Below, in pieces: positions 12,524-43,310 of a stretch of DNA of 64,000 bases (positions are counted from its first letter, which is position 1; each line of letters begins with the position of its first letter). The translations under genes and the position numbers were made by a program. The stretch lies in IMG/VR virus record IMGVR_UViG_3300013426_000016, positions 64,001 through 128,000 of that record. One strand, given 5' to 3'. The notes below the pieces were generated by a model, which worked only from the letters and a program-made list of their open reading frames with translations, searched no databases and was not told the DNA's origin. Source of the stretch: a virus. Lineage: Duplodnaviria; Caudoviricetes.

Positions 12524-12524
12524 A

Positions 12525-14513: not shown

Positions 14514-14558
14514 AAATAGGCCTCTAGCAGTTTTCACTGTTAGGGGCCTTATTTTTTT
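14512..14558. terminator. Bidirectional intrinsic terminator between convergent modules
   Basis: aaaaataggcctctagcag-ttttca-ctgttaggggccttattttttt: hairpin flanked by A and T tracts. Confidence 0.85.
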
Positions 14559-17500
14559 AGTCGTTAAGGGTTTTTGCAATACCTTGGAAGTCTCTAAACA
14601 TACCAACGTTTTGAGTTACCCAGTAAGCAATATTAGATTTACCAAACATTAAATTTGTAGTTGATTTTATAAGTCTTTGCGCATTAGAAATTAAAGGAGG
14701 ATCTTGTCCAAATTGTCCAAGAATATTATTTAATTGAGAATCTTGCATAGCTCCAGTAAGAACAGCATATGCTAAATTCTCCATTGGTCCTTTATCTCGC
14801 ATAGCTAATCTTACTTTTTCCCAATTAACACCAGGATTTTCTACATCTGCGGATTGTCCAAAGATAGTATTTACAATCATTAACATAAATAATGTCACCC
14901 ACATATCATTAAAACAAAGTTTTAACATAGCACGAGTAGTTGGATTTGACCACATTTTATTTATATCTTCTTGATTCCAAGTTAATACAGCTTTCGCAAA
15001 TTTAAGGGATGCTTGTAACATACCTTGGAAAGGCAATTGATCATAATCGAAATAAAGTCTGCACTTCTCTTTTTCTTCTTCAGAAAGAGCATTAAATTCA
15101 CTTTCCAAAATGATATCTTTATGTGCTATACCATTATCGTCTTCATAAAAACGTACATATAAAGGTTTGCCATTTTTATCATATTGTTGATTTAATGTAG
15201 CAATATTATATTTACCTTCATGTATAGTTCATTGTTCCACCTTTGCAGTAAGGAATGTTTTATATTGAAGGAAAAGAGAACCAATAAAAGTATTACATAA
15301 TAAAGATTTAGATTCTTCATCATAGTGTCCATATAAATAGTCAGCATAGTTTTTAATACCTTCTGCTTCTTGTCTTGTATATGCCTGAGGTAGATTTTCT
15401 ACTTCGGTTAAACTATATTTAGAACCATCTGCTTTTCGGAAACCTTCTCGATTTAAATCTTCTATCATTTTCTGATAAAGAGAAAGTTCTTTAAGATATT
15501 CTGGACTAGACTTGTCACCTTTTACTAAATGTTTAAAACGAGCATCTTTTTTAATATCATATTGAAGAGTACCATTCTCATCTACAGAGTGAGCTTCCCA
15601 ACTTCCATCTCCCATCATTTTAGCAACAAGTAAAGACATACGATGCAAGAAATCAGGAGAAGTAGTACCTAACATTAAAGTATCCATTCCCCAGTGATTT
15701 ATATGTAACCAATTAAGTCTTCTTTGATTAGCTACCTGATTAAGAGATTGGTTTGCCATGCCATAAATAGCATTTAATTGCTGAAGCATACTTACACCAG
15801 AAGTATTTTTATGTGCTGTCTGAATAACATATTCTACAGCTTTCTTATAAGAATCCCAAGTAATTCCTGGATATAATTCTACTCCAGCTCTTGTAAGTCC
15901 TGTAATAGTACCTTGTAGAGTTTCTCGTAGGAAAGATTTAACATTTAAAGCAAGATTTACTTTAGAAAAACCTGATTTAAATACGTCTAAAAATTTAGCA
16001 ACTTGTTGTACAGGTTCTGGAATTATAGATTCACCATAAAATTTACTCTTAACTATATCATCAAAACGCTTTCTAATATTTGCCATATCTACAGTACTAA
16101 CTGTAGAACCCTTGGCATCAAGCATTTCCAAAGTAGTTTTTAAACCAGCTATAATAGGTACATATGTTTTACTTACATTAGAACGACAGAAAGCTACTAA
16201 AGAAGCGTTCATTACTAACTCCAGATCAGTTTCAAATAAACCATACCCATACTCATCTAAGCGAGATTGTCTTGCAGCTAAATTATCAAATTTAAGTTTA
16301 TTATACAGCTCTTGCTTTGTTGCAACGTAACCAGAAATACTATGTTCCGTAGGTTCAACACCCATAAACAAACCCTCTGTTAGAGTAAGATTTTCTTTCC
16401 ATTTATTTTTAGTTGTTTGCCACAAACCTAAATTTTTAACTTGTCTAGAGAATTTTGCTTCAAGTAAAGGAATTGCATAATAATCATCCATTAATTTAGC
16501 TTTTGCAAAATCTTCTTCTGTTTTAAGCTCCGGGTGTCTTAATTTAGCCATAGTTTTCAAGAAAGCATCTAACGCTTCTCTTGCTATTGGATCACCATCA
16601 AAATCAGAGGAATTTGGATCCTTTAAAATAAGGTTCTCTCGATCTGCAAACCAAGTTCTAAATACACTTTCTCCAGTACCATGAGTTTCATATAATTTCT
16701 GAAATTTAATCTGAACATCACGTCCAATTTCATAGACTTGTTTACGAACTTCCTTGGCATAATCTTCAATTACTTTACCAAGTTCTCGTATATTTACAGA
16801 AGAAGATAACGAAGGAGACTTAATCATTAAACCATTTAACTCGTAAATACGTCCTTTTTCAAAGTAATCGGGACGGTCTAACTCAGTTTTAACAGTATAA
16901 CCCAAAAGAGAGTTCAAGCCCTCTCTAAGCTTTACGTAAGCATTCCATATAGGGGTATTTTGATAACCTCTTCCTGAGAAAGGATTTATGTGATATTTTT
17001 GTTCTATAAGATTTATTCTATTCTTAAACCATTCTACAGAAGCATAATCATCATTATTTCCCTTCCCCCCATTCTCAATTACTTGACAAACATTCTCATC
17101 TGTTTCTTTAGCACTTTCGATTAAAGATTCTGCATCAGACATAAATAAAGTAGGATCTACTTTAGTAAGTCCACAAGTAGGATTCTCTTCTACTAAAGCA
17201 TCGAAATTATAAATTAAATCAGAGTTAAGAGCAGGCATTTCTATACCTAACCAAGGATTTACAACTTTGATTTCTGAGATTTTATAATTTTTAAATAATT
17301 CTGGATGCAAAGCGACATAAGACATTGCTTTCATCATTTCTACATTTCCAGCTAAAGCAGGAAGTACTCTTTGTCCTGCTTCCATATCAGAACGAGTTCT
17401 ACCAAGTAAGGAGGTTCCTTTCCATAATTTAGGTACACCCTTTTCCTTTTTAAAGTCAAAATCAGAAAGTTGCATTCTAAGTGCATCAAAAGAAAGCCAT

Positions 17501-19188
17501 ATAAGGGCAGATTTATTTCCTTTTGTAAATCTAAATAGACCTATGGAGTTGGCCGCTTCATCTTCTTGGAAAGTCCAGCTTTCTTGTAAATAAGGTCTAA
17601 AGGTTTCTTCTACAAAGTTTTTAGTATCATCTCTAAAAAGAGAAGTTAAAACAGAAATAGGATCACCTTGTTGTATAGATTTAATAGCAGCTGCTACATC
17701 TAATCGCTTAGTAGTTTGTAAAGAACCTTGTTGGCTAATAAGTTCTTGTAACTTAGTATCTAATTCACTTTCTTCACAATATGTTTTAGGCTGACCGAAT
17801 AAAGAAATACGATATTTAACTTTCCCTTCTTCATATTTAGGCTCTCCAGAAGTCAATTTGTGTACTAAACGATCTTGCTTTTTATAATATTCCACTTTAG
17901 TACGAAGATCCTCACCTCTAGCAATTACAGAGTTTTTTGGAAAAAATGCATCATTAGCCTTGGCTATTTTTTGTATGTCATCTGCTGTGAGTTCTACTTT
18001 TGGTTTAAACCAGGTTTTTACAGTAGAGGCAACTTCACCTCCTTTTAATCTACCTGGATTAGTAATAATGTCTTCAGCAATGTAGTTTACTTGTATGCTA
18101 TCTACTCCAGTTACTTCAAAAGGATCATCTTGATTTTCATATTTTAAATTTAACTTTATAGGTAAAATATTCGTATCAGATACAGGAATATCGTATTGCT
18201 CTACCATATTTCTATACATCTCCGTCTGATAAGAAGCAGCTAATTTCTTAGTAGATACCCATAATTTCTTCTCTTGAACTGCTTTATTTCCAGTGATTTG
18301 TCACCACTCTAATGTATTTTCTCCTTCGGGAGCAATACTCTTTCTTGATACCTTATAATCATATATATGACCTTTACCAAACTTGTCCACTACAAGTAAA
18401 TCTATTATACCATTAAAAGAGTCTAAATGTGCCCCCTCCAAAATAGTTTGAGCAATAGAAGATAAATTTTTAGACTTAATAGCCAACTCTGGATAAAAAG
18501 TACATTCTGGATACAAAGTCATTAGATGTTTTTTAAACTTAGTAGCTTGTTCTACTACAGAGTTAAATACATTATCAGGTAAAGTTTTGTTTACAGGAGC
18601 TTCTCCTTTAAAAACTTTTTCCATAATACTATGCACTTCTGTACCAAGTTCTGTTAATTTTGGCCAAGAAGCCTCTTCCATATCTAATACATTTTCAGCA
18701 GAAACTCCTTTCTTTTGCATAAACTCTTCTACTTTTAAACCTGTAGGAGTAGTTTTAGAAGAGGAAATATTTGGATCATTAAGTTCCGCTATAGTTGTTC
18801 TCTTGTATTCTGCCATATCCATAGGTGAAACACAAACATCTCCATTATGAAGATTAAGTGTTGTAATAGCTCGAGTAGTACCTATAGAACCAGGAATTAC
18901 TTTAATTTTATCCAAATCTTCCCCTCCTTCAAAAGGAGCACCATGATTAGGTTTATCTATAATAATTTGGTTACTAGTTATATCCGCTGTAATATTATCT
19001 ATCTTCTCTTTAATTTCTTCAGAAACAGATAAAAATTTTACAGTTCCTTTATTTTTATCTACCAATATCTGGTCTAAATTATTTAGGAGAAAAGAGTCTA
19101 GATTAGTATCTAGACCCTCTCCTAAATCAACTTGTTTTCCATTTAAGGTCAAACTTCATTTACAGTTTTCTCTTAAAATTTTATCCAT
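14557..19188 (-). CDS. Large virion cargo protein, 1543 aa, with N-terminal PD-(D/E)XK nuclease domain
   Basis: ATG 19188 overlaps the vRNAP stop; ORFs join across TGA near 19156, 18301 and 15229; GTEVHSIME...GIIDLLVV...IYDYKVS...YQTEMY motifs. Confidence 0.85.
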
Positions 19189-22100
19189 TACAATCTTGTT
19201 CAAGTTTATTATTTTTATCTGTCTTGTTAATTAAATAAGTCTTTAACCAACCTACTTTCTGATTTTTTAGCATATAATCCTGAGAAATATCTCCCATAAA
19301 ATTAAATACTGAATATGCAAATTTTTCAACAGCTTCTTCAAGATTTAAACCTACTATTTCAGATAAATCTTTTACACCATCTGGGAATAGTGTTTTAAGT
19401 CCTTCTAAAACAATTTTATTATTAGCGAGATCAATTTCAGTTTCATCAGAAAGTTTTCCGGTAAGTACAGTTTCTATTTTATTACAAAGAACTTCTTCCT
19501 CTAAATCAGTACCAGTAAGCCAAGGATAATATTTAGTATAAGTTTCTATATCTTGCCCCGTACGCACTTTGTCTAACAAAGCATATAAAGCAACCCTATT
19601 AGGATCTGTTACATCTTTGTTTTTAATAGCAGCAAAGACAAAATGAGATAATTCATGCATTCCTACACCAATGGCATTTTTAGCGTCCAATTTAGCTAAA
19701 TTAAAATGAATCAAACCATTTTGTATAAAAGCCTTAGGAGAAGTCTTACTCTCATCTCTAAATGTACTTACAACCTTTTTATTATAATTTAATTTATCTG
19801 CAAAAGTATTAATAATATCTCTTGCACTTAAATTACCCAGTGGAGTAAAATGTGAGAGTTTAGTTTTTATTTCTACTCCAGCCTGTGATATGAGGCCTCC
19901 TGTCATAGGAAGATCGAAAGTACAATCCTTAGGAAGTTCCATAAATTGGAAACTTATAGGTTCATTAACAGATGTATCTGCATATTTACCTAACCTATAA
20001 GCAACTTCTTTTATAGGAATTTCGTAGTTCATATTTCCAGAATCAAGTTGGCCTATAAACTGATAGTATGCAGAAATCCCAGCAGGACTGTTTTTACTAT
20101 TTACCAGATTCTCAAATATACGAGTAAGTGACTGATTACCGTAAGAATTCTTATTTACAATTAAGTTATATAAGAAAAATAAATCCCCTATATTATTTCC
20201 AGCAACTGTGTCTTTAGCTATAGAGTTAAATCCAGTTAAATACTGATTATACTTTGCAAGAGAACTTTCGTCAGCATCAATTTCCATCATTTGCAATGGT
20301 AAACTATAAGTAAAAGATTTTAGCCTTCTATTCTCAGTAAGATTTAAATCTCTTACAAAAGGATTATCTTTATATACCATTTTTAAATAAGGAATAATAG
20401 CCTGTTCCATTATATGCTTAAATGAAGCAATATCCATAGCATTACTAAAAGTTAAATTTGCAACAGGTTCGCTTACACCATTAGGTTTATAAACTTCTAC
20501 AGGGCGTTTTATAGTATTAGCTAACTCTTCCAAATTAAGAGAAAAAGAGCTATTAAGAAGAAATTTATAAATCATGGTGTCATTTAAGTATCGATTAATC
20601 TCTTTATATGCCTTATCTGATAAATAAAATACTTTTTTGTTATTTAATAAAACATTTACAATAGCATCAGTTTTCTTAAACACATAAGAAGTATTATCCA
20701 ATACATCTTTAGCCACTCCATACACTTTAGCCATATTATAGAAATTAGGAGAAAGATATAGAGCCTCTAAGATATTAAATGTTCCAGAAAAATTAGTACT
20801 ATATAACTGTATAGCTTGTTGTGCATAGTTCGTATCTGTAAGGAAACGATTAAAATCAAGAAGAACAGGATTATCTCCAGCAGTTATTGGCATCATATCT
20901 ATGTTCTTACCGTAATTAAGGAAAGCTGAAATATCAGTACGTAAACCCCCGTTAACACTGGCCATTCTACCTAAAGTAGACATTTTATCTGCTGCGTCTA
21001 ACAACTGTCCTAATGTATTTAAGTTTTCCGCATTCTTCTTTACCTGTAAATATTCAAGTTTTTTACTTAAGATTTGTAAGCTTTTATATACTTTATATAA
21101 ATCTTTAGTTGTCCATGGAACATTTACTTTTACGCGTCCTCCATCACTATTTTGTTCTGCTTCTTCCAAAGCTTGGTAATAAGCATCCCACATTTCACTA
21201 GTAATACGTTCTGGAGCATAAGTCATTAGATCAGAGTTCTCAAAAGCGTCTATTACCGCAGCAATTGCTTGGGTATTAGTAGTAAAATCTTTAGTTTGGA
21301 GTAACTCTTTTCCATGTTTTTTTGCCCAAGAATTATAAAGCTGTACAACCCTTTCCTCAGTTCCTTTTTCAAATCCAGGTATTTTATCTGCTAAGAGTTC
21401 CTCAATCATCTTTTTAACTTTATTACCTCTAGTAGAATCGTCAAAAATATTATCCTTTCCTATTTCAGTAATCCAGTTAAACATTTCAGAAGTCATTATA
21501 TCAGAAATGTTTTTAAAAGGAGTTCCTAGCATGAAAGAGGTAGTATAAAAGTCTACAAGATCCGCAGTTGCATTTAATTTAGGTAAAGCCAAATCCTTAG
21601 CATTATCTGCACCTAAAGAAATGATACCTGACAAATAATCAGAAGCATTTACAGCCTTAGAATTTCGTATAGCAGTCTCTAATTGTCCCAAGAAAACTTC
21701 TTTATTTAAATTCCCATAAGCTTCTTGAGGAAAACTTCGGAAGCCTTCTAAAAGACCTTCTGTATTAGTATTTGCTAAGAAAGTTGGTTGACGCAGAATA
21801 GGATTGTTCAGCATCATAGAAATAACTTCTTGAATAGCTTCTGATAATTTACCTTCTTTTAAATATTGTCTTGCTTTATCTGCTTTAATATTTGCCATAT
21901 AAGACAGAAGATAATAAGTCTTTAGAGAAACTGCTCCAATGCCTACTACAGATTTACCTAACATATTTTGCACTTGCATTATAAATAAACTTGTAGCTAA
22001 ATCAGAAGTAACTTGCTTTTCAGCAGAACCAGAAGTAGTACTTGCAGCACGTGCTTTAAATTCTCCTGTACATTCATCTACAGCTATTTGTGCCTTTAAT

Positions 22101-25100
22101 TGCACTTCTGGAGATAAAGTGATATTTTTAATATTTTTAAATATACGTGTTTTAAGTGCTTCTGAAGAATCCCTTAGATAAGAATTTGTATGAGAATGCT
22201 TATTTAAAAGTTTTAAAAAATTAGCTTTCTTTGTTTCCCATTCAGTATCTACAACTACAGGGGTTTGGAAAGTAACTGTAGCTGTACCATTTATAGCATC
22301 ACTATTTATTTTATTTGCTATATAAATAAAGGTCTCTTTATCCTGTTTTGTTCACTCACGTACTGGTTTAGAAAGATTCTCTACTATAAAAGATCTTACT
22401 CCAGTTCCATTTTCTCCCTCTACAAAATTAACTTCATTAGGTTTAAAAAGCTTAGAGGCGTAGTAGTATCCCAAATTTCTTTGTAAAGAACTTCCAGAAC
22501 GTAATGTACCGTTTTTTAATATAGAAACTGTAAGCAGATACAGCTTATCAATGTCATAGTCACTACCTGTTAAATAGGTATTTTGTTTTGGCAAATAGAT
22601 TTCATTCTTTTCGCTGTCTGTATATGCCACCACTTTAAAAGGCATATAAGACTGCATATTCTGAGTAGGAATACGTGCTCCAATATAAGTACTTGCTTCT
22701 TTAAATGATTCATATTTATCATTAGCAAGCCTCTCTACTTCTCCTAAAAATCTATTTCTTTCCTTTTCAAGATTATTAGAGTCAACATTATTTCTGTAAA
22801 TATCTTCAAAATAATCAGAGTCTATTAATTTTTCAAAATCGTCTTCAGTTGCTACATTAATATAATTATAAGAATAAGTTCCATCACTAACTGTGGCACC
22901 TTTAATACCCTCTACTCCAGAAACAATAACTTCACCATTATATCTGAAATCCTCTCCTAAGGTACTAAATGCTGGATCGTCATTAAATTGTACACTATCT
23001 GTTAAGTGAGAACCTTCTTTTCCTATCTTTACGAGGAAAGGAACTCCATTATGATAAATGACTTTATCATAAACACTTAATTGTGTTTCTTCATCTAAAC
23101 TAAAGACCACATTTTGTAAATTATTTAAAATCTTTCTCTCGAAAAATTCTGAAGAAGTTATATCCGAAATTTTATCTGTTTTTTCTATTCCGATTTTTTC
23201 AAGTTGGTATCTACCGATAATAATTTCAGCAGGAATTACTTGGCTTTCTGGGCAATAAAAAGACACATAATTAGAAGTATCACCAAAAGCATCTTGTGCA
23301 GAAATACTAGCTTTATTTGCTAAATCTCTTACATCCTCTCCAGCCCTTACAGCTTGATTAAACTGTTTTCCGAATTTAAGAGCATTTAAGAAGTCCTGGG
23401 TTAATTGATTACATTCTGCAACTGTAGTAACTCCAAGTTTTTGAATTAATGCTGCTTTCTTTTCTGCATAAGGATCATTTTTTTTAGGGTTATCTAAGTA
23501 ATGCGCAGCTCTTACAGAATCATTATTATAATAACTGTAAGTACCTAAAGAAACACTATTTCCAGTAGCATCTATACCATATACAGTATATACAGTATCA
23601 GTACCTTTTAAATTCTTAGGTGCAGCTGTATTTACATAAATAATAGCATCTGGAGCATAATCTTTTAAATTTCTTAAAATATCATAAGTTTCAAAGTTGT
23701 CTACATAGTACTTAGTAATAACTCCATTCTCCTTTATATAAACAGTATCTTCAAACTCTATTTCTCTTTTATTAATTTCTTTTAAGAAAGGATTTAATTC
23801 TCCACCTATAATCCAAGCATTACTTGCAAGATCAGCATATGAAGAGTAAAAATGATTTTCTCCTGTATAATCTAGCCCAGTAAAACCTTGTCCTTCTATA
23901 TAGGAAATTCTATCACTAAGAACAGATTTACACTGTTCATTAAATTCTGGAAATAATAACCCATTTTTATAATACATAACATTATTATAACCAGGATTCT
24001 GTACAGCAGCAAAACCTTCATATTTTCGTCTAATAGCCCCCTTATTAAATAGAGAAATTACATTTGCCACAAAGCCACCATATAAAGTAGCATCACTAAA
24101 TGGCAAAGAGAAAGATTCTCCGTTTTTAGCAGCATCTAAGAACTTTTTGGAAAATGCCTGTGCAAGACCTATTGTATCTTTACTGCCTGTAGAAAAGCTC
24201 TCAACAAAAGATCTACCAACTAGAGTATTTAAAGCCTGTCTTGCCTGTTCTTTACTTTCAACAGAAGCATCTGCATTCTTTAAAGTATCTAAAACAGAAA
24301 CAAATCTTTGTACTTTATCGTTATTCCAAACAATGTTCCCAATGTCCTCATATACTTCTCTGGCTTCTTGGAGACACAAACCACTTTCTATAAGAGAAGA
24401 AATCATCTGAGTCATTTCAGTTACTTCCCCTTCAGCAAGTTCGTGATCAGCATCCATCATAATGCCTCCATACTTAGTAGAAAGATCGAAAGTGTAGAAA
24501 GGAGTATTATCTGCAAGAGAAGAAACAGGATTAACGTTTTCTGCTCCTACTTTACATGCTGAAGTATTTACTACATAAGCTACTTGTTTATCACGTAAAT
24601 CATATCTGATAGCTATTTTTTCTAGCATATCTACACTTGCTTCATTCCCTATAAAGGAGTTACCTTCTCTAGAAAAAGTAAAGCATCCACCAAATATTTG
24701 GTCTATATCATATAAGGTGTGATTCTGTGTAGTATCATAATTCCTTCCAGCTCTAACTGTACCATCAACAGAACGAAGTTGTTGTGTATAAACTCCATTA
24801 TTCTCAGTAAAACCTATAAGTTCTTCATATTCTAAGCTTAAAGGGTTTTGTATCCAGATAGTACCGTTCTTATTAACATATTCTCAATATTCCTGTGCTA
24901 AATTAATATTCTTATTAAAATCTAAAGAATACATTTTCTGAGTCTGTAATTCAAGACTATCATTAGCGGAATAAGAAAGTCTACGCAAATTATTTGTGAT
25001 AGCATATACGGCCCATTTTAACAACACTGGAGTATTATATGCTGCATCTATATCATGTAAAATAGTCTTTTTATTTTCTCCAGCATAAGCATCCACAACA

Positions 25101-28100
25101 GAGTTGTTTTCCAAACGAGCTTGTAAAGCAGTACATCTACCAGCACCGTCTTGAGAATCGATAGTACTTTCCACTCCCTTTGGAGTAGCAACAGCAGCTT
25201 TTCTATCTTTAACTATAGCTATATGTATTTTTTCTGTTACTCCATTTGCTTTACCTTCTTCATTTAAAATTCCTTGTGCAAAAGAGTGTATAGTAGAACC
25301 ATTAATTACAGAACGCTTAATCTGATTTACATATCGACTTGCTTCTGAGAACTCTAAATAATTATCAGCATCTTTCGTTTTATTTTTATTTGGATGTGCC
25401 CACAATTCTCCTAAAGTTAAGGTATTATACTCACCATTTAAAATTAAATTTAAATAGAAATAAGTATTAGCTATACTATGTATCTCCCCATCTTTATTTA
25501 TAAAAGAAAACTCTTTAGTATTCGGATTATAAAAACCATTATAATCTTTACGATTAGCAGGTTTCCAATTAATTAAAAGATCAAAATATGAACTTTTATC
25601 GTCTCTATTAGACTTACGTTTTAAAGAGTCATCAAATCCATTTAAAATAGTAGAAGCTAAATTTCTCTTTTCCTTTGCTTTCAAGAAATTTATTCTTGTT
25701 TCCCAATTCTCTTTAGAAGAAGATGCATTTAAGAAATTATAAAAGGTTTCGTTAATACTAACTTTCTTAGTTAAATTGTTTGTAGAAGCGTGTACTTCTT
25801 CTTTAAAATTTACACCAGCATCTAAGAAAGCTTTACGCAAATCATCTACAGATCTAAAGTTTTCTGAAATATATTTATTAATCTCAGAAAGAGCTTTTAA
25901 AGCATTTTTAGCGTTAGTATCACCATCACTGGTTAAAGCCAAAGGTTTAAATACAGAAGGAAAAACTTCTGCATAATCATGTATAAGATTTCTAGCAACA
26001 AGTACATGTCTATCCCTCTTTAAGATTCTAGCTACTTCTTGCAACTTTTCCCCATTATCATTTAAAGATTCTGTTATAATATCTTTAAGTGTTTTTCCAG
26101 TGCCAAATATAGAACTGAATACTGCATTCTTAATGGTTTTATTTAATCTCCACCCCGGCAAGAAATGTCTTGCTTTATCAGAGAAAACTGCATTTTGTAA
26201 ATAAATACCATTATCTATATCAGAACCTCCAAGCAAATAAGGAAAAAAGAAATCATCAAGAATCTGCATTTTATTAAGTTCTTGCTGATTTAAAACAACT
26301 GCGGATTTAATTTTTCCATTTACTTCAACTTCATTTCTAATCTGAGGAAGAAGGAGTAAATCTTCATCGGAAAATAAAACATTATTTATTTGTGAAGTAA
26401 TAGGATTATTTTTAGCATCATATAAACAGCTCTGCCAGTTATATTCAAGACTAGTTAATTGGAATAAAGGTAATTTACTACCAGAAAGACTAGAAACAAC
26501 ACTTTTAACAGAATCACCATAAATAATACCAAGCCTCTCTCCTATTTTCAAAAATGTATTATTAAAAGACTTAATATTAATAGTACCATCCATATTATAT
26601 ATATTAGACGGTAAAAGCCCATATTTTCCCTTGGTTCTTTGTAATGCTAATTTACTGCCTATAATTACAAACGGAAGAAAGTCATTTTCCCATTTATAAT
26701 TAGTCTCTCCCATACAAGTAGCATAATCTTCCGGTAAAGTATAAGAAAAAGCATCCTGTAAAAAATCCTTTAAAATATCAGTATTTTCAGTAGTGTTACC
26801 CACTTCTATTTTATTTCCTATTTTATAATCTACAGAAAATGTTCTACCAGTTTCAGTAGTAAGAGACAACTGTTCTACGTCTCCATTTCTTGTAATTATA
26901 GGATTGTATTTAGAAATAATATTGTCAGCTACGTTAGTACTATGAATGGTATTAAATCCTCCGTTTACTATATTTTGAATAGCAAACTTTTGAGTAAGAA
27001 TCATTTTAGACTCTAAGGACTTTGCTCCAAACATACCTGTTTCATCAGTTTGATAAACTCTATAACTGGTAGGTTCTGTTTTATAAAACATTCTGCTGAA
27101 CATGTTTTTCACATAAGCAGGAGTTCTATCTCCAAATAAGAAATAATTTATACCTCTAAGTTTATTATGTATATAAGTCTGTCTAAACCTACTAAAGTCT
27201 GAAGTAGATTTGCTATTTACAGTATTAATAGAAACAAAAGCATCTATTAAATTAGACAGATTATAGGGATTATTCGGGTCTAAGAATGCACTCTCTCCTT
27301 TATGAAAACTCTCTCTGAATTTATAGGTATCTTCTCCAAATTGAGTAGTATAGAGTAATGCTTGTTTTAAAGTTTCCATTGCTCCATTATATCCAGCAGT
27401 TCCTATATAAGAAGGTAAAATACGTCCTTTAGCATCTATTTCTGGAACTAAAGAAAGAATAGTACCAGCTAGATTACTTACTTGTTTCATTATATCCGCA
27501 CTTTCATCTTTTCCGGAGTAACCAGAATAATGTTCTACCTTAGGCACTAAAGAGTATTTCGTAACACCCTCTATACCAGCTTTTAAATAACTAGGATCTA
27601 TTTTAATATAAGGACTATTATTTTGAAGTAGTGAATCAAAGTTCTTTAAAATCACATAAGCATTATATACATCTCCTTCAGAAGTAGGATTGTCATGCAA
27701 ATATTCACCGTATGCTGTAAGAACAGTATTAATAGCATTTGTCACTTCCTCATCTGAAGAATCTATATTTAAATTAGCAGGTTCGATTTTTAATGCTGCT
27801 GTAATTAAATTAAGAAGATCATTCTTAAAATTTAATATGTTTTCTTGTGCTATAGTGATATTTGTACCCTCTACAAATGCATTTCCATCTATAAAATCAT
27901 ACTCCCCATTATTTAAATTAATAGACAAAATTGTATTTGCTAAAATTCTTTCTTTAAAGAAACTCTTTAGTTGATTATACTTTGCAGTATCAGCAAAATA
28001 AGAGCCTACATCATTTTCATCTATATCTAATTGAATACTTGTTACGGGAGTTTTAGAAGAAGGGGGAGGTGTAACAGTCTCCCCCTTAATCCAATTCTTA

Positions 28101-28234
28101 ACAGTATTCAGAGCAACTTCGGGATCAGTGAACGCTTTTGCGAACTCTTCTCCCAATCTTTCTGGATCGTTTTTATATGCTTCATATAAAGCATAAGCAC
28201 GAATAAAAAGTTTGTCAGAATATTTACACTGCAT
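19181..28234 (-). CDS. Virion-packaged DNA-dependent RNA polymerase, 3017 aa, with C-terminal zincin-like motif
   Basis: Three ORFs join across TGA 24884 and 22352; catalytic GSDYDIDK (about 22543-22567), GARIPTQ, ADNAKD, SQDG; HELSH...EEEVL near the C-terminus. Confidence 0.92.
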
Positions 28235-28249
28235 AATTTTTATTTAAAT

Positions 28250-31200
28250 TTAACAACTCATAATTTCTTCAAATTTAGCAATTTTTTCTGCGATTTCAAA
28301 ATCAGAAGCAATAGTAGAAAGTACTTTAGAACGCATTCCCTTTAAGTCCTTAGGCTGTATATTAAAGAGTCTATAAGCAATATATTCTTCCCCAGTATAA
28401 TACATAGCAGAATTAACTATATCGCCCTCACCCTTTTTAAATACATAATTCTTATATCCATTTTCTGTATAATAAAAGGCATTTCTACTACCTATAAATA
28501 AATTGGAAACCCTCCGCTCAAATGGATTCATACTATCTATAAAATAAGTTTCTTCTTCATAAAGTATATCCATACCATAAGTCTCTTTAAACCAGGACTT
28601 TATATTATTCTCATCAGTAAATGTTATTTTAAATTCTCCATTCTCTTCTACTATTTGAGCATATAACCAAGTATTACTCTTCTTCTTTAATTGTATATTA
28701 GCATCTTCGATAGAAGAAGCCGTTATATTAAGATTATTATCATTTATAAACTTCTGAAGAGGACTAATAGTAGGAGCTGGACTAACCTTTGGTGCAAGAG
28801 CAGGGCTTGGTTCTGGTGCAGGTGTAGGAGCAGGTTTAGCTGCTGGCTTACTTGGATTTCCAGTCTTTATATTAACTGCATAAGTACGCATACTCTGTAT
28901 TTCTGCATTAACATAATAAATCTTATTTCCTGGGTCTAAAATAGTATAATAAGAATTAGGTGCAGCACTGTCTTTAATACCTTTATCGTCCAAGAAAATA
29001 CCGTATTTTGCCACATTGTTAGTGATAGCTTTAGAGATATTCTCTTTTTCATTAGGTGCTATATTTTCGGAAATAAAAGCAAGCGTTCAATTAGAAGAGT
29101 AATTGTGATCATAATGAATTACATTTCCATTTTTTGTATAATCATGCATACCACGTAAAGTGATGGCTGGAATATTATTTTCATTATAATCTTTAAAAGC
29201 AGCTTTAAATAAGAGTTCAAAGTTTATAACTTCTCCTGCTTTAGGGCCAACTTTACCTAAAGAACGTAATTTACCGCTGTCTAAAGTAACCCAATGTAGT
29301 TCTCCATTAATATTTCCTATACTTACTTTATTCTTTCCAAGAGTAATATCTAACCAATGAACGTCTTTATGTCCATTCTGATTTAAAGGATTTAAGAAGC
29401 CAGATAACGCAAAAGCTGTATTTTTACTATATAAAGCACAAATACCAACTATAGCATCTGTTTTATTTTTAGAAATCAGTTGTCGTATTTTACCCTTTTC
29501 TCCATCGCTCCTAAGTAAAGTAGCATTTGCTATAGCTTCGATAGGTGCGGTATCTCCAGATTCTCCATTAGTACTAATTAAAACCTCTTTATTTGAAGAA
29601 TAACCTGCTAGTTTTCTATACTGATTAATAGCTTCTAATAAAGTATCGAAATCTACTAAACTTTGAATACCGACTAAAGTATACTCTTGATAATCAGTAA
29701 CAGACTTTCCATCAGCATCAGTTTTAAATACTCCATGCTCTGTATCTGAATCCAAAATCTTTTCTTTAATGGCAAGTTCACAAGTAATAGGACACATTAC
29801 TTTACCATTATTTTCTCGAACATATTTAGCGGTACGTTCATCCAAATTACTTAAAGAATCTTCAGAATGTACAGTAATAACTCCAGATTTTTCTCCAGCA
29901 TAAAAACCATTTTCTTTTAAGAAATCATTTAAAGGAATATGAGTAGTAGCTTCTTTAGTTATACTATCAGGTTTTACCAAGTCTATAGTACCTTTATATT
30001 CCCCAAAGTAAGAATTCCCTTGTATAAGTAATACCGGAATATCGAAATAATTTCCATTTGCACTATAAAAACGATAACTAATTAAACTTAAATCTTTTTC
30101 ATATGGACTTATCCAAGTTGTTGTATAACCTCCATTTAAGAAGGTTTTTAAAGCCATATCTATATAAAGGTTTTTAGTAGTTACTACAGATGGATCATAT
30201 AAACCAGTTCTTACATAAGAACCGATTCTTTCCACAAAATTATTTCAAACCAACGGGTCTTTAAAACCATCCGCTAATTCTGGGACAGTTCTAATATCCT
30301 TATATGAATTTTCTTGTCCATCCCATTTAAGTCCAAATGCATTAATCCGTGGATAATAAAAAGCTCTGCCAATAAAGTCTCCTTTTTTAGCCTTTCTTAA
30401 TTGTCCATTAAAACTTACATCTAAGTCCAAAGGAGTAAGTTTACCAAGTTCTTCAAAAATCTCTTTACTTCCTTTATATGGAGAAGCAAACATTTTATTT
30501 AGAACATTTAAACCAGGTTGTCCATAAACACGAGAAACTATTTTTTCTAGTTTTCTATGCACTGGATTTAATGGGTTCTTCAAATCATCTAAAGATAAAG
30601 AAGAATCTATACTCTTTTTCAACTCTCTTCCAATATAAGGAAAACTATTATCAAGAAGAGCATAAAACTCGCTCGAAGTAGTTATCCCCTCTGAAGAATT
30701 AAAGTAAGCTTCAAAACCAGAAAGCTTCTTTCTCTTTGGTTTTGCAGGAGGAACTTGCGGAGGAGGCGTTATTTCTCCTGTTTCTGGAGGAGGTGTAGTT
30801 CCTTCTATTTCCGCTTTCAAACTATCCAAATACCCTTGGTCATCAATAGGAGAAGACTCTGGTGCAGAATTAACTGAAACTGGAGTTGCTGCTCCATACA
30901 TTTGGTTTATATACTCTTCAAAATCTTTCTGTTGTGCTTCAGCATCAGAAGTAGGTGTTCCTTCATCAGTACCACTTTCAGTAGTAACAGATGTATTTGG
31001 AGCAGCAGTCTGAACTGTAGGAACATTTGTTGGGGTTGTAGGAGTATTTGTAGTAGTATTTGTAGTAGGAGTGGTAGCATTTGTAGCAGCAGTAACATTT
31101 GCAGTAGGAGTAGGCGTTGTAGAAGCAGGTGTAACAGAAGAAGGGATATTACTGTCCTCAAAAAGTTTTGGGAATTCTTGTCCCATATAAGGCTGTAAAA

Positions 31201-34200
31201 CATCTTCCATCCACTTCATAAAGGAATCTCTTTCTGTATCTGAAATTATAGACACTTGTGCTTTAGTTTCATCTGGAACAAAATTAAAGAGACTATCTCC
31301 TTCTATTTTAATTACAGATCCTTTTCTAGAACGCTGAGTAATAGTATACAAGTCTTGTGTAAATAAATATGAATCTATCTTCCCATTTCTAGAATCAACC
31401 TCTTTAAAGTCTACATCAGAAATAACATAATCATATTCTCCACCAGCACGCTTTTCGTAAGGAATAGTAAATACTTTTCCTGGTACTTCAAACTGCTTGT
31501 ATTTATTTGTTCCTGTATAAATAATACCTACCGTACCCAACTTAGAAAGATTATTTATATAAGTCTCTAAGTCTTTAGAAGAAGATACTTTCATATCTCC
31601 AAATACTTCTCCAGTGTTTTTATCCTCCCAATAATATAAGTCTCGTGATTTTAAATTACTATTAAGAAGATTACTTCTTTCTGATAATGGCATTTCTGGA
31701 TGCTCTGTTGCTATATTAATTACGGCATCTAAAGCATTAGCCATTAAATTAGTATTTTCCTTCTTAGCGAGGGTCTGAGCACGCATAGAAGTGGTTAAAG
31801 TAGGAGTTTTTACAAAATAAGTATCCTCTAAACCAGAAGTTCTAAACTCTGTTTTACCTTCATTTTTAGCTCTAAAAGTAGTACTCGGTTGTTTTAAATC
31901 CCCCATACCAATGATAAAAATACCATGTCGTTGGGCATCAGCACTTAAACGAGTTAATTCAGCTTCAGAAAGAGTTTCTATTTCATCTACTACCAATAAT
32001 TTAATAGGAGCATTTACATCAAAAGCAGTGCCCTTAAAAGAAAGAGCATTATTAGAAAGTAAATGGCCATTTTTTATCACATAAGAATCTGGAGAAATAC
32101 TTTCACCATAAACTAATTTAAGATAATCATCAATATTATAAGCACGAGAATTTGGAGAAGCACCATCTCTAACGTTATCTGCTTGCTCTTGTTCCCTTGC
32201 TACAAAAATTACTTCTGGTTTTCCTCCAGTATTTGTAACAGTATCTAAAATAGTTTTAATTACGCCAATAGTTTTACCAGAACCAGCACTTCCTAAAACA
32301 GTAGCTAAGTTGTATAAAGGTAGTTTATCATTAACATAAACCTTAAATACATCATTAATTTTTGGGTCTATAACTGCTGACTTCTTTATTTCAGACAAGA
32401 TACCATTAAATACAGTAGGACTTTTAATTTGTGCTAAAATTTGTCTAGTAGCATACTCCTGTCCATATATAGGAATGATACCTTTTCCATCTTTCTTATA
32501 GGTATCAATAGTTCCAGCATAGGCTCTATAAAACTCTGTAGGAGAAATAGAAGTAATAGTAGCTAAATGATAAATTAAATCTAATGGACTTATTTTAGTT
32601 TCCGGATCAGCATTTAATAATGTATTTGGAGCATTATACAAGCTCTTAACATTAAAATTACTTAAAATATCTTTAACAACTTCTTCTGGAGTCTTACCTG
32701 TATATTTATCATAAATTTTCTGTTCAAAGTCAATAAAATGATTTTCCCAAGCAGCATAAGTATCTTCGGTAGGATTAAATGAATAATCCCCCCACATATC
32801 TTTATACTCTTGTGAAAGATCAGTTAAGCTCTTTGCCCATTTAGCACCCATATTAAGTGCGGTATCCTTATGTACTCTAAGAGTTTTAGCAGAATTTACA
32901 GCAGATAAGGCTCTTAAATAAGCAATCTCCCCTTCATAGTACTGAGCTTGTTGGAGTATATGTTTTGCTGCGCGTTCAGATAAAATAGGTAATTTAGAAA
33001 GAGTATCTCCATCTATATGCTTAAAGTTATTAATTATATCATTAGTACCATCAGCGGCACCAGTAACAACAGCACGTATAACTTTAAATACAGGATCGAG
33101 TTTTTCTGAACTCAAACTGTCTTTAATAATAGGATTCTGCATTATATAATCTTGCAGTGTTTCAGAGGAGATTACATTCTTTCTTTCTTTTTCTAGAACA
33201 TCAAATAAAGAAAGAGTTTCTGCATCAGTCCCTATATTCTTTGCAAGTTCTATAAAGGCAGAGTAATTAATTTCATTCTTTAACTCGGAAAACTCCTGAA
33301 CTATATCAACTATATTTTTACCTCCAATTACAGGTAACAAGGTATTTAAAAACTCATTTAAATAAGATTCATTTCCAGAGTCTAAAAGTTTACTCTTATT
33401 TTTAATAATGTCTTGTAATTCAGTGTAGTACTTCATTACATTTACATCATTTCCTAAAGAGTCTACTAAAGCATCAACAGTCTTTTTAATAGAGGCTTCG
33501 GCTGAATTTCCTTGTATAAACCATTCTGGATCGTAAGGATCAATAGCAGTAGCTAAAGCAACTTTCGGTATAACATTCCCATCATCATCGTAGTATTTTT
33601 CTACAAGATTAAAATAAGCTTGCATCCAAGTATTTGCTCCACCACTTGCTTTATATGCCTTTTTAATACCATCATAGAAAGCATTTAATTCTCCATCATC
33701 AAATCTATACTTAGACTTATCTGCTTGATACTGAGTTAATAAACTATTTAATAAAGCATTTGTAATTTTACTCTTAGAAGGAACTTTATCATCAAATAAA
33801 AGAAGTTTATTTTTCTCGTTAGAACCCTCTATAAATAAATCTAAATCTTCAGCAAGAGAAGCTTCAGATATGGCTAATTCTGGATTATTAATAACTGTTA
33901 AAAGCTTTTTACTTAATTCCGTTAAAGAAGATTGTAAAGAAAGTTTTTCTTGCTCTTCTTCTGGAGTTAAATTTTGTTTGTCTTCTAATTGTTTATAACG
34001 TTGTAATTGCTGTTCTTGTTCTGCTTGTATATTAGCCAAGTCAGAAAGTCCAAGTAAAGTAGGAACATTATTCTGATCAAAAGTCTCGTCTAATTGTTTA
34101 CCTTGGGCTTCTATAGGAGCAACAAATTTAGAAGATAAATCTAAATATAAATCGTATGCTTTATAAACATTATTTCTACCTTCAGTATCCAAATAGTTTT

Positions 34201-36730
34201 TATGCTCTTCTTTAATTTTATTTTGCTGCTCGTCTGTGAAAGAATTTAAACCTCGCCCATATCTGGTTTTAACATATGTGTCTAATGAGAGATCTACAAA
34301 GTTCTTATTTAAATTACTATCAGCTGCGAAAAGAGCTTGTCCACTGTAATAACGATTTTTTGCACCATTAAAGAAAGCTTCTTTCTCTTTTCTTAACTTC
34401 TTTAATTTTTCTTGTAATTGCTTTACTTGTGAGTCTTCTTCTATTCCTTCTGCAACAGTTTTTCTTTCATCTTGTGTTTCAGCAGGTTTCTCTGATAATT
34501 CTTGAACTCGTGCTTGTAAAGCAATTTTTGTTTTAACAAGGTCTGTTAAATTATCATATAGAGCATTTTGGAAATTATTATAGTCTTTTAATGCAACTAA
34601 AGTACTAGTGCCTATCAGCTTAGGATTTTTTAAGATTTCATTAGTATCATAACCTAAAACACGAAGCTGATCCATACCCTCTTTAGACATATAACGCAAG
34701 TCTATTTCTTGATTAATAGCTTGCTCATAAGTGTCTAAAGTATTTTTTAAAGTTTTATATACAGCATCGTTCTGATTTATTCCAGTAGTTTTTGGTATAA
34801 ACCTCTCTTGGCCATCTAAAGTTTTAGTAACTTCTCCATCTATGGACAAATCTTCACTTCCCAGCAACCCTTTCTCGTGCCATCTGTCTAAATAATAATC
34901 GATTTCACTTCTTTTACCTGTAGCTATATAATATATAAGTTTTTCTATATCAGGTAATTCTGTAGGACTCTGACCAGTTAATTTATTATTAAGCCATTTT
35001 TCATAGCGATGTTGCCCAGCGAAAATCATTCCACTCAAGAAACCTCCACCAAAAGACGCTATATATCTTTGTATTATATCAGAAACACTAAAACCAAAAT
35101 CTATCGGTTCATCATCTTTAGTAGTTTTAATTCCTAATGCATCTAAAGCAGTTGTAGTAGCCTTTACAAGGTCTGTAGTAACTTCTTCCATGGTTTCCTC
35201 AGCACCTTCAGAAAAACCTCTATTAATTAAACCAGGAACACCTTTTTTAGAAAGACCTTTAAGCATTGTATCCTGGTAAAAATTAGAAACTTTATTTAAG
35301 AAAGTAGCTGCTTTCTGTGGCGTTTCTAATCTAGCAGCATTTGCTAAAGCATCCGCAGTTTCTCTAGAGACTCCTCTTACAGCAGAACGAATTTCACTTT
35401 CATCCATAAAAGTATCTTTAAAGAGATTGTCTCTAAAGTAATCGATATTCATTAATTTATAAAGAGCCAGTGTACTAGCAAGCATTCCCAAAGAAGCAGT
35501 AGTATCATTAGCACCGGCTTCCTTAAATGCTCCATAAGTTTCTTGTGCAGAGGTAGCAGCCATATAAGCAAGAGAGAGATTCTTACTTACATCAGAAACG
35601 GATTTTAAATCTTTAACGCCATTAGCTTTTGCAATTAAAGTAGGAAGAGTGGAAACCGCACGCTGTTCAAATAACTGTTTAGAAATATCAGCTACCAAGT
35701 TTCCTATGTTTTCAAAAGATACAAAGTGATCTCTTCCATAGTCAGAAGCAGTAGTATCATATGCAGCAGCTCTATTCTCCCAATTAGTAAGAAATTCTCC
35801 TATAGAATTATCGTTTGTACCCGATATAAGACCATTAACAGTTTTACCAAAAACAGGCATTACTCGAGCAATTGCATTAGCCGCACTTACATAACCATAA
35901 ACTTCTCCAACATAAGGTATAAATAAAGGAGCTACTTTAGCTACTAATTCTAAGGCTACTTTACCAGCTCCTTTCTTTACATCATCACTATCGAAAATAT
36001 CTACTTTGTTTCATTTAGAGCCATCTACAGTAAGTATATCACTTCTGCGAAGTAGATCCTTGCCATACATTTCTCTACCAGAAAGAGTTTCATAATAAGG
36101 TTTTCCTTCTGCATTAAATTTTAAATCTCCCGCTTTATGTGGAATTGTAATGCCATTTTCTTCATGTGTACCATCTTCATCCCACTGTGCTAAAGCCATA
36201 GAAGGTAAAGAGAACCAACTAAACAACCCTGCTTTATCATTTGGCGTATAATCAAGTTCTTCTCCCGTTTCATAATCAACTACTTTCTGAGTTTGTGCAA
36301 TCTCACGCACACTCAATTTATTCTTTTTTCCAGAAAGTTCCGTTATATAAGAAATACCTTGTGAGTAATCAAAAGGTTTTTGGTCTACAATCATTATAGG
36401 ACTTGTATCCCTTTTAATTGCATCTGCTGGAGCATACCAAGCATCTGGACCAAAAGAAAGATTTCTTGTTATATTATCAAATAAAGAGTCTTCTGCCATA
36501 GTAGCATACTGTATCTGAGCATCTTTATAAACAGAGTCAAATTTCTTTTGGTCAAATTCTCCTGTAGGAGTTTTAAAAGCATCTACAACTTTAGGCATAG
36601 CCATATACTCCTCCTTAGTAAGCAAGGAGGAGTTTTCGGCAGTGATTCCAGCATCTTTAAAGTCAACTAAAGAAAGTTCTGGATTCTTTGTTATTATGGC
36701 TAAAAAATCATTCTTTTTTGTTTCATTCAT
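28250..36730 (-). CDS. Giant virion cargo/ejection protein, 2826 aa, with SF1 helicase-like domain
   Basis: Four ORFs join across TGA 36011, 30245 and 29087; GSAGSGKT, VVDEIE, GDLKQP, LYTITQRSRKG; hydrophobic segments near the N-terminus; Pro/Thr linkers. Confidence 0.87.
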
Positions 36731-41600: not shown

Positions 41601-43310
41601 TCTAGCAACGGTATAAATATCTGTAGGAGTTTTAATAAGGTTCTTTATTTGTTTATTATCAAAGTCTGTTCCTTGTTCCAAAAGTGCGTATACAGACTCT
41701 AAGTTTTCTTTAGGAATTTCCCACACTTTATTATTAGCTTGTAAATACCAAGTACCATTTTTATCTCTTACTATAGTATTTTCTTGCGTACCATCCGCTG
41801 TTTTAAAACGAGCGTGTTCAGCAAAACCATTGTTCCAAGCATTTAAAGGAAGAGTTGTTTGTATATATTTATTATAAGGATCTACCTCCAGTTCATAATC
41901 TTTTGCCAGAGTGTTCAGATCGGAATACGGATCAGAATACTCCCCATTACCAAGATACACCAAATATTGAGGAGTCATAACTCCAGCTTGGTTTTCATTA
42001 TTTGGAGAAACATAAGAAAGAATATTATAACCTTTTGTATCTTTAAACCAAGGAGTAAGATCTTTTACACCACCACCAAGAATCTTTGCATTGGTAAAAT
42101 AGTCATAATACATAGGACTATACACATCAGAGTTGTAATTTTGATAGCCTCCGTAATAAGTAGAAGTATCTTCTATACCATTATGCTCTTGTGTCCAAAG
42201 ACGATCATCTAAAAATCTAACCCCGGAAGCATTTGCAGCATCATACCAAGAATTCCAGTCTTTAGCAGTTCTTCCTGCCGTAATAAATTTAGCTACATAA
42301 GGATCGAAACTTCTGTCTTTTAAAACTTCATCTAAGCTATATACAGTACCATTAATAGCAAAACCGTTTTCATAATCGGTATTTGCAAAATTATCAAATC
42401 CTCCTAAATACCAAACAGAGTCTTTATAAGCGTCCCCGTTAAGGTAATATCGTCCGTCAGCACCTCTAACAACACCTTCTTCGGGAGTATCACCTTCCCC
42501 ATTTTCAGGTTTTCCACCCTCATCTCCTTCATCGTCTTCACCTCCCGTATCTCCATCCGCAGGATCGGGATCGACAGGAGTTTCTACTACTGGAGGTACA
42601 GGTTTTTCAAAACCCATAAGTCTAAGAAGATTTAAATCCCCTTCACTTAAATTGCCAGAATGTAACCTATTAATAAAATCGGTAGAGTAACCCTCTACTC
42701 CTCCTTTATATGCTAAGAGTTCGTTCCCTAAATTTCTAAGCTGAGTTCTATCAGCATTATTCCAATTAGAGTATTTATATATATCGTCTACATTATTTGT
42801 ATCTACAGCATAATTAAGCAAAGATTTAATTAAATCCTCTCTATCTTTGTTAAGTATAGAATTAACATCATAAGCTTCATTATTTGTATCAAACCAACCA
42901 GAACCTCTACGTAACTCTTTACGAGTATCCATGTCTACATTAGCAAGTAAAAGACCACTCTGCTTAAAACGATGATTTTTAGTATTAAATGTAGCTCCTA
43001 AATTTCTCTTAAGTGTAGAATCATTAATAGAAGCAGTAATACCTTTTCCCACATAATTAGAAGTAATGTCTTTTCCCGTACTATCTAAAATTTGTATAGT
43101 GTTTTCTGTAGGATCGTATATAGCCTCATTTCCATCTTTAATGGCCCTAGTAGCAATACTATACATATCTTTAGGACCATTTTTATCTAATTCATAAGCA
43201 GCAGCTATCCTCTCTAAAGCTTGTTGTCCAAGTAAATGTTTCCCATTCATAGTAAATTTACCTTCTGGAAGAGGACCTGCTGCATTTTGGTATTTCTTAA
43301 CTAAAGCCAT
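38613..43310 (-). CDS. Putative ejection/cargo protein, 1565 aa, with Gly/Ala-rich membrane-like segments
   Basis: ORFs 39999-43349 and 38613-39992 join across TGA 39999; ATG 43310 lies after the terminator; GAIADLGGVVSSFAGPVGGAIGAGAGL segment; helical C-terminus. Confidence 0.82.

What the first reader, a model, noticed from the sequence alone, without database searches (positions are those of the whole stretch)
14557..36730. Head-to-tail terminal cysteines on three consecutive giant cargo proteins
Seen: the 2826-aa protein has no Cys in roughly its first 2200 residues yet ends ...EEIMSC*; the RNA polymerase starts MQCKY and ends ...EQDCNG*; the 1543-aa protein starts MDKILRENCK(W). The two outer ends (MNETKK..., ...KTLND*) lack Cys, so cysteines occur at exactly the four internal junction termini. 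Inference: disulfides or metal bridges link the proteins in gene order into one chain of about 7400 aa that is threaded through the tail in sequence and released in the reducing cytoplasm. I do not know of a description of such a mechanism.
Basis: partly seen in the sequence, partly recalled or inferred. Interest (0 to 1): 0.75.

Follow-up and report, generated by a model that had tools for sequence, protein, structure and literature searches.

The report
Cysteine clips chain phage cargo proteins
Three giant proteins that this crAss-like gut phage probably packs in its head and injects, including its RNA polymerase, each carry a cysteine exactly at the ends that face the next protein, and relatives lose that pair where genes fuse and gain one where genes split, which suggests an undescribed way of clipping separate proteins into one injectable thread.

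Summary
Confirmed under genetic code 4 (TGA=Trp). The 2826-aa helicase-bearing protein, 3017-aa virion RNA polymerase and 1543-aa nuclease-like protein carry Cys at the four facing ends and at neither outer end. The rule is order-wide. Among 391 de-duplicated adjacent gene pairs, 232 have both Cys, 138 neither and 21 one; most of the 21 that I inspected were start-site errors, inserted genes or unrelated genes. It holds in all four Crassvirales families sampled. Cultured phi14:2 has only these four Cys in 5,398 aa. Fusing neighbours removes exactly that junction's pair, full 5,500-aa fusions have no Cys, extra splits add a pair, and inverting a gene keeps the polarity. Best reading (0.62): short terminal docking modules sealed by disulfides turn separate gene products into one ordered thread, equivalent to a polyprotein and to N4's cysteine-free polymerase chain. 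The bond itself is inferred, not shown; a metal bridge remains possible. Release in the cytoplasm is untested and may not be needed. I found no paper describing this. This scan has noted the same pattern on several other crassvirus genomes.

The parts
28250..36730 (-). Cargo protein A, first in the chain (2826 aa, code 4). SF1-helicase-like domain at residues 1475-1616. No Cys before residue 2313; ends in Cys. Syntenic with crAss001 gp47 and phi14:2 gp67 (by position; sequence homology to them not shown).
28253..28255 (-). Junction 1, upstream cysteine (Cys2826, last residue of protein A)
   Evidence: C-end Cys in 24/24 distinct homologues
28226..28228 (-). Junction 1, downstream cysteine (Cys3 of the RNA polymerase)
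   Evidence: nearly invariant in alignment A1
19181..28234 (-). Virion RNA polymerase (3017 aa, code 4), homologue of phi14:2 gp66 and crAss001 gp50. Its last roughly 220-280 aa are an HExxH (zincin-like) module that is a separate gene, with Cys at both ends, in many relatives.
22547..22561 (-). Catalytic DYDID motif (residues 1892-1896)
19643..19657 (-). HExxH motif of the fused zincin-like module (residues 2860-2864)
19190..19192 (-). Junction 2, upstream cysteine (Cys3015 of the polymerase), ending a helix-plus-strand terminal motif
   Evidence: (invariant)
19162..19164 (-). Junction 2, downstream cysteine (Cys9 of protein B), opening a hairpin-plus-helix terminal motif
14557..19188 (-). 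Cargo protein B, last in the chain (1543 aa, code 4). Weak PD-(D/E)xK nuclease match at 179-286. Gene overlaps the polymerase gene by 8 nt. No Cys near its C-end.
36732..43310 (-). Two upstream genes (626 and 1565 aa) in the positions of crAss001 gp46 and gp45 (by synteny only). They lack terminal Cys and serve as the internal control: not part of the chain.

Best explanation
The RNA-polymerase-associated cargo of crassviruses works as one long ordered thread, built either as a true polyprotein or from 2 to 5 or more separate gene products. Where the thread is split, the end of protein n and the start of protein n+1 carry short complementary docking motifs (inferred). These pick the right partner during head assembly and bring one Cys from each side together (inferred). 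The two Cys oxidise to a disulfide in the released virion (inferred), which stands in for the missing peptide bond. On infection the thread is pulled, partly unfolded, through the tail and envelope channel as a unit, much like N4's single-chain polymerase. The nearly Cys-free first 1,100 residues of protein A stay in the envelope, and helicase, polymerase, zincin and nuclease modules reach the cytoplasm in order (inferred). Reduction there may free the parts, but this is not required. Shown: the Cys rule, its pairwise gain and loss, the terminal motifs, the Cys gradient along protein A. Not shown: the bond, where it forms, threading, release.
For: Pairwise concordance: both 232, upstream only 15, downstream only 6, neither 138; Fisher p about 2e-79, pairs not phylogenetically independent. 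Most of the discordant cases inspected were GTG starts, missed ORFs or inserted genes. phi14:2 has four Cys in 5,398 aa, all at junction ends; 22 of 30 clean trios (some redundant) have exactly four Cys. BLAST-verified fusions: A+RNAP keep the C-end Cys and lack the N-end one (L043, L056, L077, L085 have no other Cys); RNAP+B L021/L022 keep only the N-end Cys; A+RNAP+B L070/L074/L079 have none. Extra splits into four or five genes add a pair per junction. A prediction made before looking held: all nine 310-385-aa cargo-type inserts have Cys at both ends, while ferritin-like and homing-endonuclease passengers in the same gaps do not. Breaks inside the polymerase gene at likely introns carry no pair. 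Outer N-ends: 0 of 54 first members have Cys. The rule holds in Steigviridae, Intestiviridae, Crevaviridae, Suoliviridae and Fpv3. Cys is the only invariant non-Met residue of the junction-2 motifs, which occur almost only at termini (176/177 and 151/151). One Cys per side in 230/232 junctions, His 0.6-1.0%. Literature: crAss001 virions contain inter-subunit disulfides, carry these proteins inside the capsid, and must partly unfold them to eject (PMC10172136). Some phages fuse the three into a polyprotein (10.1101/2020.03.07.982082). N4-like virion polymerases avoid Cys (PMC3715699, PMC11445570) and N4's is modelled as beads on a string (PMC13434306).
Against: No direct evidence of a bond. In the window's own lineage (gut, probably anaerobic hosts) interior Cys are tolerated at 0.2-0.4%, against 0.036% in the phi14:2-like set. 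That weakens the argument that these proteins meet an oxidant and raises the question of what oxidises the pair in an anoxic gut. Terminal Cys positions vary (mostly 1-9 from the C-end, 3-13 from the N-end) and the motifs differ between lineages, so no single universal docking fold is visible. Recombinant gp66 purified with DTT transcribes on its own, so the link is not needed for catalysis. No dedicated oxidase is seen; the genome's thioredoxin lies next to ThyX in the replication arm.
Confidence: 0.62

Rival explanations
1. Same head-to-tail chain, but the two cysteines bind a metal ion (Zn or Fe) together with acidic residues or with a second copy of the junction, like a Rad50 zinc hook. 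This would work without oxygen.
For: The pairwise gain-and-loss rule fits equally. Terminal Cys stay invariant in gut lineages where interior Cys are tolerated. Glu is frequent two residues before the upstream Cys. Several copies of each protein per virion are expected.
Against: Only one Cys per side in 230/232 junctions, no conserved His, and no second invariant ligand in the alignments. Near-total removal of other Cys in the phi14:2-like set points to an oxidising route. A two-thread metal site would have to pass a tail constriction under 50 angstroms.
Confidence: 0.14
2. The proteins are only docked non-covalently in the virion. The disulfides form at infection, made by host periplasmic Dsb enzymes, and tether the polymerase to an envelope-spanning channel as a DNA-pulling motor.
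For: Cys avoidance in ejected proteins is attributed to periplasmic oxidases. The first 40% of protein A is nearly Cys-free (0-0.04%), against 0.16-0.47% further on. N4's polymerase is modelled as staying membrane-tethered. This route solves the anoxic-gut problem.
Against: Both junctions lie downstream of the helicase domain, in parts expected to be cytoplasmic, where disulfides would not last. Brief passage through a closed channel gives little access to Dsb enzymes (inference).
Confidence: 0.1
3. An enzyme ligates or modifies the termini (transpeptidation, thioester or thioether chemistry), giving a true peptide-like join.
For: Equivalence with gene fusion. A zincin-like HExxH module lies in the cassette.
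Against: The downstream Cys is never residue 2 in the 232 junctions, so no free N-terminal Cys arises by Met removal (1 of 140). Offsets vary at both ends. No intein or ligase motif is evident.
Confidence: 0.05
4. The cysteines do not join neighbours. They close each protein on itself, or attach each protein to a common scaffold such as the portal or cargo proteins 1 and 2.
For: The middle proteins have Cys at both ends, as a ring closure would need.
Against: First and last proteins have a single terminal Cys. Fusions delete the C-end Cys of n together with the N-end Cys of n+1, not the two ends of one protein. Full fusions need none. gp45/gp46-like proteins often have no Cys. An AlphaFold2 model of a 361-aa middle member leaves its C-terminal helix unpacked (pLDDT 35-59; weak, no distances given).
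Confidence: 0.05
5. Chance, or an artefact of gene calling under a recoded genome.
For: The ORFs exist only under code 4.
Against: The same pattern occurs in standard-code cultured phages and in hundreds of distinct junctions. Contigs of other runs span both junctions without listed indels there.
Confidence: 0.005

Closest known systems
Crassvirales RNA-polymerase-associated cargo block: crAss001 gp47/gp50/gp49 and phi14:2 gp67/gp66/gp65 (GenBank tags gp078/gp077/gp076)
   Same: Same synteny after muzzle and cargo genes. Homologous catalytic region (profile E 4e-13 to gp50, 4e-9 to gp66). These very proteins obey the terminal-Cys rule.
   Different: The papers read (PMC10172136, 10.1101/2020.03.07.982082, PMC7886860, PMC12386605) treat them as separate proteins and do not mention cargo cysteines or links. 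Here the polymerase is larger, fused to the zincin-like module, and read with TGA=Trp.
N4/DEV (Schitoviridae) virion RNA polymerase gp50/gp71
   Same: Giant ejected polymerase, Cys-free, modelled as beads on a string threaded through a narrow tail with an N-terminal envelope part. The fully fused crassvirus forms (zero Cys) look the same in design.
   Different: One polypeptide, T7-like polymerase fold, no terminal Cys. No homology claimed.
Polyketide and non-ribosomal peptide synthetase docking domains (from my own knowledge)
   Same: Short C- and N-terminal modules that order giant proteins head to tail and stand in for gene fusion.
   Different: Non-covalent, no conserved Cys pair, and they serve substrate hand-over, not translocation.
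Disulfide-tethered two-chain proteins and end-linked polymers: AB toxins, viral fusion proteins, von Willebrand factor and mucins (from my own knowledge)
   Same: Interchain disulfides keep parts together during transport and can be reduced on arrival.
   Different: These are cleaved single precursors or homopolymers joined like end to like end, not ordered chains of different gene products with one Cys at each facing terminus.

Membership tests
Crassvirus virion RNA polymerase cargo block | Giant protein with DxDxD catalytic motif homologous to phi14:2 gp66 | tested here: met
   DYDID at 1892; profile A1 hits gp66 (3.8e-9) and gp50 (4e-13) over the catalytic region; the reverse profile hits the window protein (domain E 5.6e-7). 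Direct phmmer against PDB found nothing.
Crassvirus virion RNA polymerase cargo block | Flanked by other giant genes, downstream of muzzle and cargo-1/2 genes | tested here: met
   Gene order; the 1504-aa gene at 47432-51946 matches crAss-like and Fpv virion structural proteins.
Crassvirus virion RNA polymerase cargo block | Packaged in the virion and ejected | not testable with these tools
   Shown only for crAss001 and phi14:2 proteins.
Zeta group of Crassvirales | Large genome, stop-codon reassignment with suppressor tRNA, interrupted polymerase genes | tested here: inconclusive
   Low-GC core of about 160 kb, TGA=Trp with tRNA-UCA, many relatives of 140-190 kb with split polymerase genes fit PMC7886860 and PMC12386605. 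No terminase tree was built and no classified close relative was found.
N4-type single-chain virion RNA polymerase | One Cys-free polypeptide with T7-like core | tested here: not met
   Three genes, 28 Cys, DxDxD two-barrel motif. Works like it; not a member.
Disulfide-linked protein chain | One Cys on each facing end, gained and lost in pairs | tested here: met
Disulfide-linked protein chain | Interchain S-S bond present in the particle | not testable with these tools
   Needs non-reducing gels and cross-link mass spectrometry.
Zinc-hook type metal bridge | Two Cys (CxxC) or Cys/His ligands on each partner | tested here: not met
   Single Cys per side in 230/232 junctions; His 0.6-1.0%.
Split intein or native-ligation join | Free N-terminal Cys/Ser at a fixed position plus an intein domain | tested here: not met
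   Cys at residue 3-13, never 2; no intein family in the Pfam scan of the three proteins.

The most novel reading that the evidence does not exclude
Crassviruses use a general 'cysteine clip': orthogonal terminal docking motifs sealed by a disulfide that concatenate up to five or more separately made proteins into one ordered megadalton thread for injection. The clip is interchangeable in evolution with gene fusion and lets the phage add, split or swap cargo modules, as small as 113 aa (L014), without losing ejection order.
Probability: 0.6. Interest if true: 0.9.

Novelty: categorically new. Interest (0 to 1): 0.8.

Why it matters
How short-tailed phages push megadaltons of protein through a narrow tail in the right order is an open question. 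The crAss001 structure paper leaves the order to unspecified interactions, and a 2026 N4 paper asks how the three crassvirus proteins relate to N4's single chain. The cysteine rule gives a concrete answer that can be tested cheaply in cultured phages: in phi14:2 these four Cys are the only ones in the three proteins. The proteins themselves are known; the novelty rating refers to the connector, which is inferred, not shown. The rule also gives an annotation tool (true starts, chain membership, intron versus gene boundary) for the most abundant gut phages, and a possible modular way to add cargo to a protein-injection device.

Tried and rejected
Code 15 (TAG=Gln) did not close the ORFs. A single-sequence locus search with the polymerase core found nothing; an alignment query worked. 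Complex prediction on a junction-2 pair from relative L182 with 34-row alignments gave no answer (score 0.14, mark 0.32); it is not evidence either way. The window's own junction 2 was not sent because it contains a TGA codon. A fold search of the 361-aa middle member found nothing. No PDB sequence match for the polymerase. Profiles of the two junction-2 halves found no internal scar in fused proteins. The 1.8-billion-protein search found the N-terminal motif almost only at N-termini (140/150 with Cys in the first 15 residues; partly built into the profile), plus unrelated repeats. Apparent exceptions P0081, P0265 and P0210 were start mis-calls. P0225 (Cys to Ser) sits on a 1.4-kb contig with a truncated gene beside a bacterial-type hydrolase and is uninformative. 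L173 (645 aa) and L199 remain imperfect: their upstream Cys lies 100 and 24 residues from the called end. No ferritin or glutaredoxin in this genome. No strong transmembrane helix in protein A by hydropathy. No RNA holder listed. Records BK049789, JQ995537, PV725988 and paper PMC12127119 were not held. Reduced versus non-reduced mass spectrometry was done for crAss001, but its table was not available. Eight full-text searches found no description of the terminal cysteines; subscription papers are not covered.
Full report
Reading frame. Under the standard code the region is in eight pieces. Reading TAG as Gln changes nothing, and five of the pieces end at TGA. With TGA=Trp the region becomes three tightly packed minus-strand genes of 2826, 3017 and 1543 aa, 15 nt apart at the first junction and overlapping by 8 nt at the second. 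Coding density rises from 0.84 to 0.93, the genome has a tRNA with anticodon UCA, and homologues were called with the same code. Contigs from two other runs of one study cover the region, one of them across both junctions; that study may be the source of the window.

What the proteins are. Protein A has an SF1-helicase-like domain and protein B a weak PD-(D/E)xK match. The middle protein has the DYDID motif, and a profile of its homologues hits phi14:2 gp66 and crAss001 gp50 over the catalytic region. Gene order after the muzzle-like gene and two cargo-like genes matches crAss001 and phi14:2. This is the known crassvirus polymerase cargo block. Size, code and relatives suggest the zeta group, but I built no tree.

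The observation. The four inner ends carry Cys and the two outer ends do not. The proteins also hold 24 interior Cys. The chance of the terminal pattern is about 2e-6 (post hoc). In distinct homologues down to 22-25% identity: protein A has C-end Cys 24/24 and N-end 0/24; the polymerase has both ends 21/21; protein B has N-end 77/79 and C-end 0/79. In the polymerase alignment Cys3015 is invariant and Cys3 nearly so, although the termini are otherwise poorly conserved.

Breadth. In cultured phi14:2 the three proteins (1797, 2180, 1421 aa) contain four Cys in all: the last residue of the first, residues 3 and 2179 of the polymerase, and residue 3 of the third. crAss001 shows the same polarity although gp47 is on the other strand from gp50 and gp49. 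The rule holds in crAss002, a Carjivirus, cr11_1, cr127_1 (Crevaviridae), cr56_1 (Suoliviridae) and Fpv3. I tabulated all same-strand adjacent ORF pairs of 500 aa or more in about 290 loci, de-duplicated by their termini: both Cys 232, upstream only 15, downstream only 6, neither 138. The pairs are related by descent, so the Fisher p of 2e-79 overstates independence. The 'neither' class is mostly cargo-1/2 and tail junctions and breaks at likely introns inside the polymerase. Most discordant cases inspected were GTG starts, missed ORFs, inserted or unrelated genes; two (L173, L199) remain imperfect.

Natural experiments. BLAST against role sets confirms the fusions. A+polymerase fusions of 3,800-4,000 aa keep one Cys, at the C-end. 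Polymerase+B fusions of about 3,520 aa keep one, at the N-end. Full fusions of 5,520-5,639 aa have none. Cassettes split into four or five genes add one pair per extra junction. After seeing a 113-aa insert with Cys at both ends, I predicted the same for other small genes inside the cassette. All nine intact 310-385-aa cargo-type inserts complied; ferritin-like and GIY-YIG passengers did not. The C-terminal part of those inserts is homologous to the C-terminal HExxH module of polymerases in the window's lineage, so the window's polymerase is itself a fused form. Cys number therefore follows 2(n-1) for n genes. The pair lost on fusion is always the end of n plus the start of n+1, which argues against ring closure of single proteins and against attachment to a common scaffold.

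Anatomy of a junction. At the last junction the upstream end is an amphipathic helix followed by a short strand ending in Cys, and the downstream start is Cys followed by a hairpin and a helix (read from the alignments). Cys is the only invariant residue apart from Met1. Profiles of the two halves hit almost only termini (wider search). The simplest picture is two halves of a small domain in which the disulfide replaces a turn. This is inference; the complex prediction gave no answer and is listed under tried and rejected. Each side has a single Cys in 230/232 junctions and His is rare, which disfavours a self-contained metal site. The downstream Cys is at residue 3-13 and never 2, which disfavours ligation chemistry.

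Redox context. crAss001 virions contain inter-subunit disulfides in the tail and vertex, hold these proteins inside the capsid, and need them partly unfolded to pass the tail (PMC10172136). N4-like virion polymerases avoid Cys, which is attributed to passage through the periplasm, and N4's is modelled as a beads-on-a-string chain that stays membrane-tethered. Interior Cys are 0.036% in the phi14:2-like set but 0.2% in the window's lineage. In protein A homologues the first 40% is nearly Cys-free and the rest is not, which fits an envelope-resident N-terminal part. The relaxed interior in gut lineages is the main reason to keep metal bridging and host-catalysed oxidation open. Isolated gp66 is active in DTT, so the link concerns delivery or localisation, not catalysis.

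Novelty. The block and its occasional fusion into a polyprotein are described. Eight full-text searches and term searches in the main crassvirus papers found no mention of terminal cysteines or interchain links; subscription papers are not covered. After forming this reading I found that the scan had noted the same pattern on at least seven other windows. Those notes are not independent evidence and did not change the score.

Verdict. The feature is real, order-wide and, as far as I could find, undescribed. That neighbours are joined through these cysteines is about 0.9 likely; that the join is a disulfide already present in the virion, about 0.62. Interest 0.8.

Noticed in passing
G000 positions 1-25,000 and about 185,000-203,856 (outside the window): The 204-kb record has GC-rich ends (0.51-0.54) around a 0.28-0.36 core: probably foreign or host DNA or a chimeric assembly. 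The phage proper is about 160 kb.
   Followed up: no
L012, L018, L036, L061, L069 (junction 2); L064, L082 (junction 1): A ferritin-like gene of about 160 aa (PF00210 confirmed for L012; the others by similar sequence) is inserted inside the cargo cassette at either junction in several phi14:2-like phages. A role as oxidant or iron source for the cysteine pairs is speculative. The window's genome has none.
   Followed up: partly
window 12483-12785 (+): Thioredoxin with a WCxxC site, next to ThyX and close to the cassette on the other strand. Thioredoxin genes also lie near the cassette in Carjivirus ZA and L304. Most likely serves nucleotide metabolism.
   Followed up: partly
window 22555: Contigs from two runs carry a 328-nt insertion inside the catalytic DYDID motif of the polymerase, the site where many relatives are interrupted; likely a mobile intron.
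   Followed up: no
L003:26243-26345; L301, L302, L304, L186, L173: Terminal Cys point to the true start codons: crAss002 gp33 probably starts 32 codons after its annotated start, and several database proteins are mis-started.
   Followed up: yes
window about 30700-31100 (protein A residues about 1870-2010): A long Pro/Thr-rich linker follows the helicase domain, and a second Pro-rich stretch lies near residue 2630; consistent with a beads-on-a-string design.
   Followed up: no
G000 38494-38568: tRNA with anticodon UCA (labelled SeC by ARAGORN), probably the opal suppressor for TGA=Trp.
   Followed up: no
L065, L071, L076, L001: In crAss001-like phages the first cargo gene faces the other two on the opposite strand, so chain order cannot depend on co-translation from one mRNA.
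   Followed up: partly
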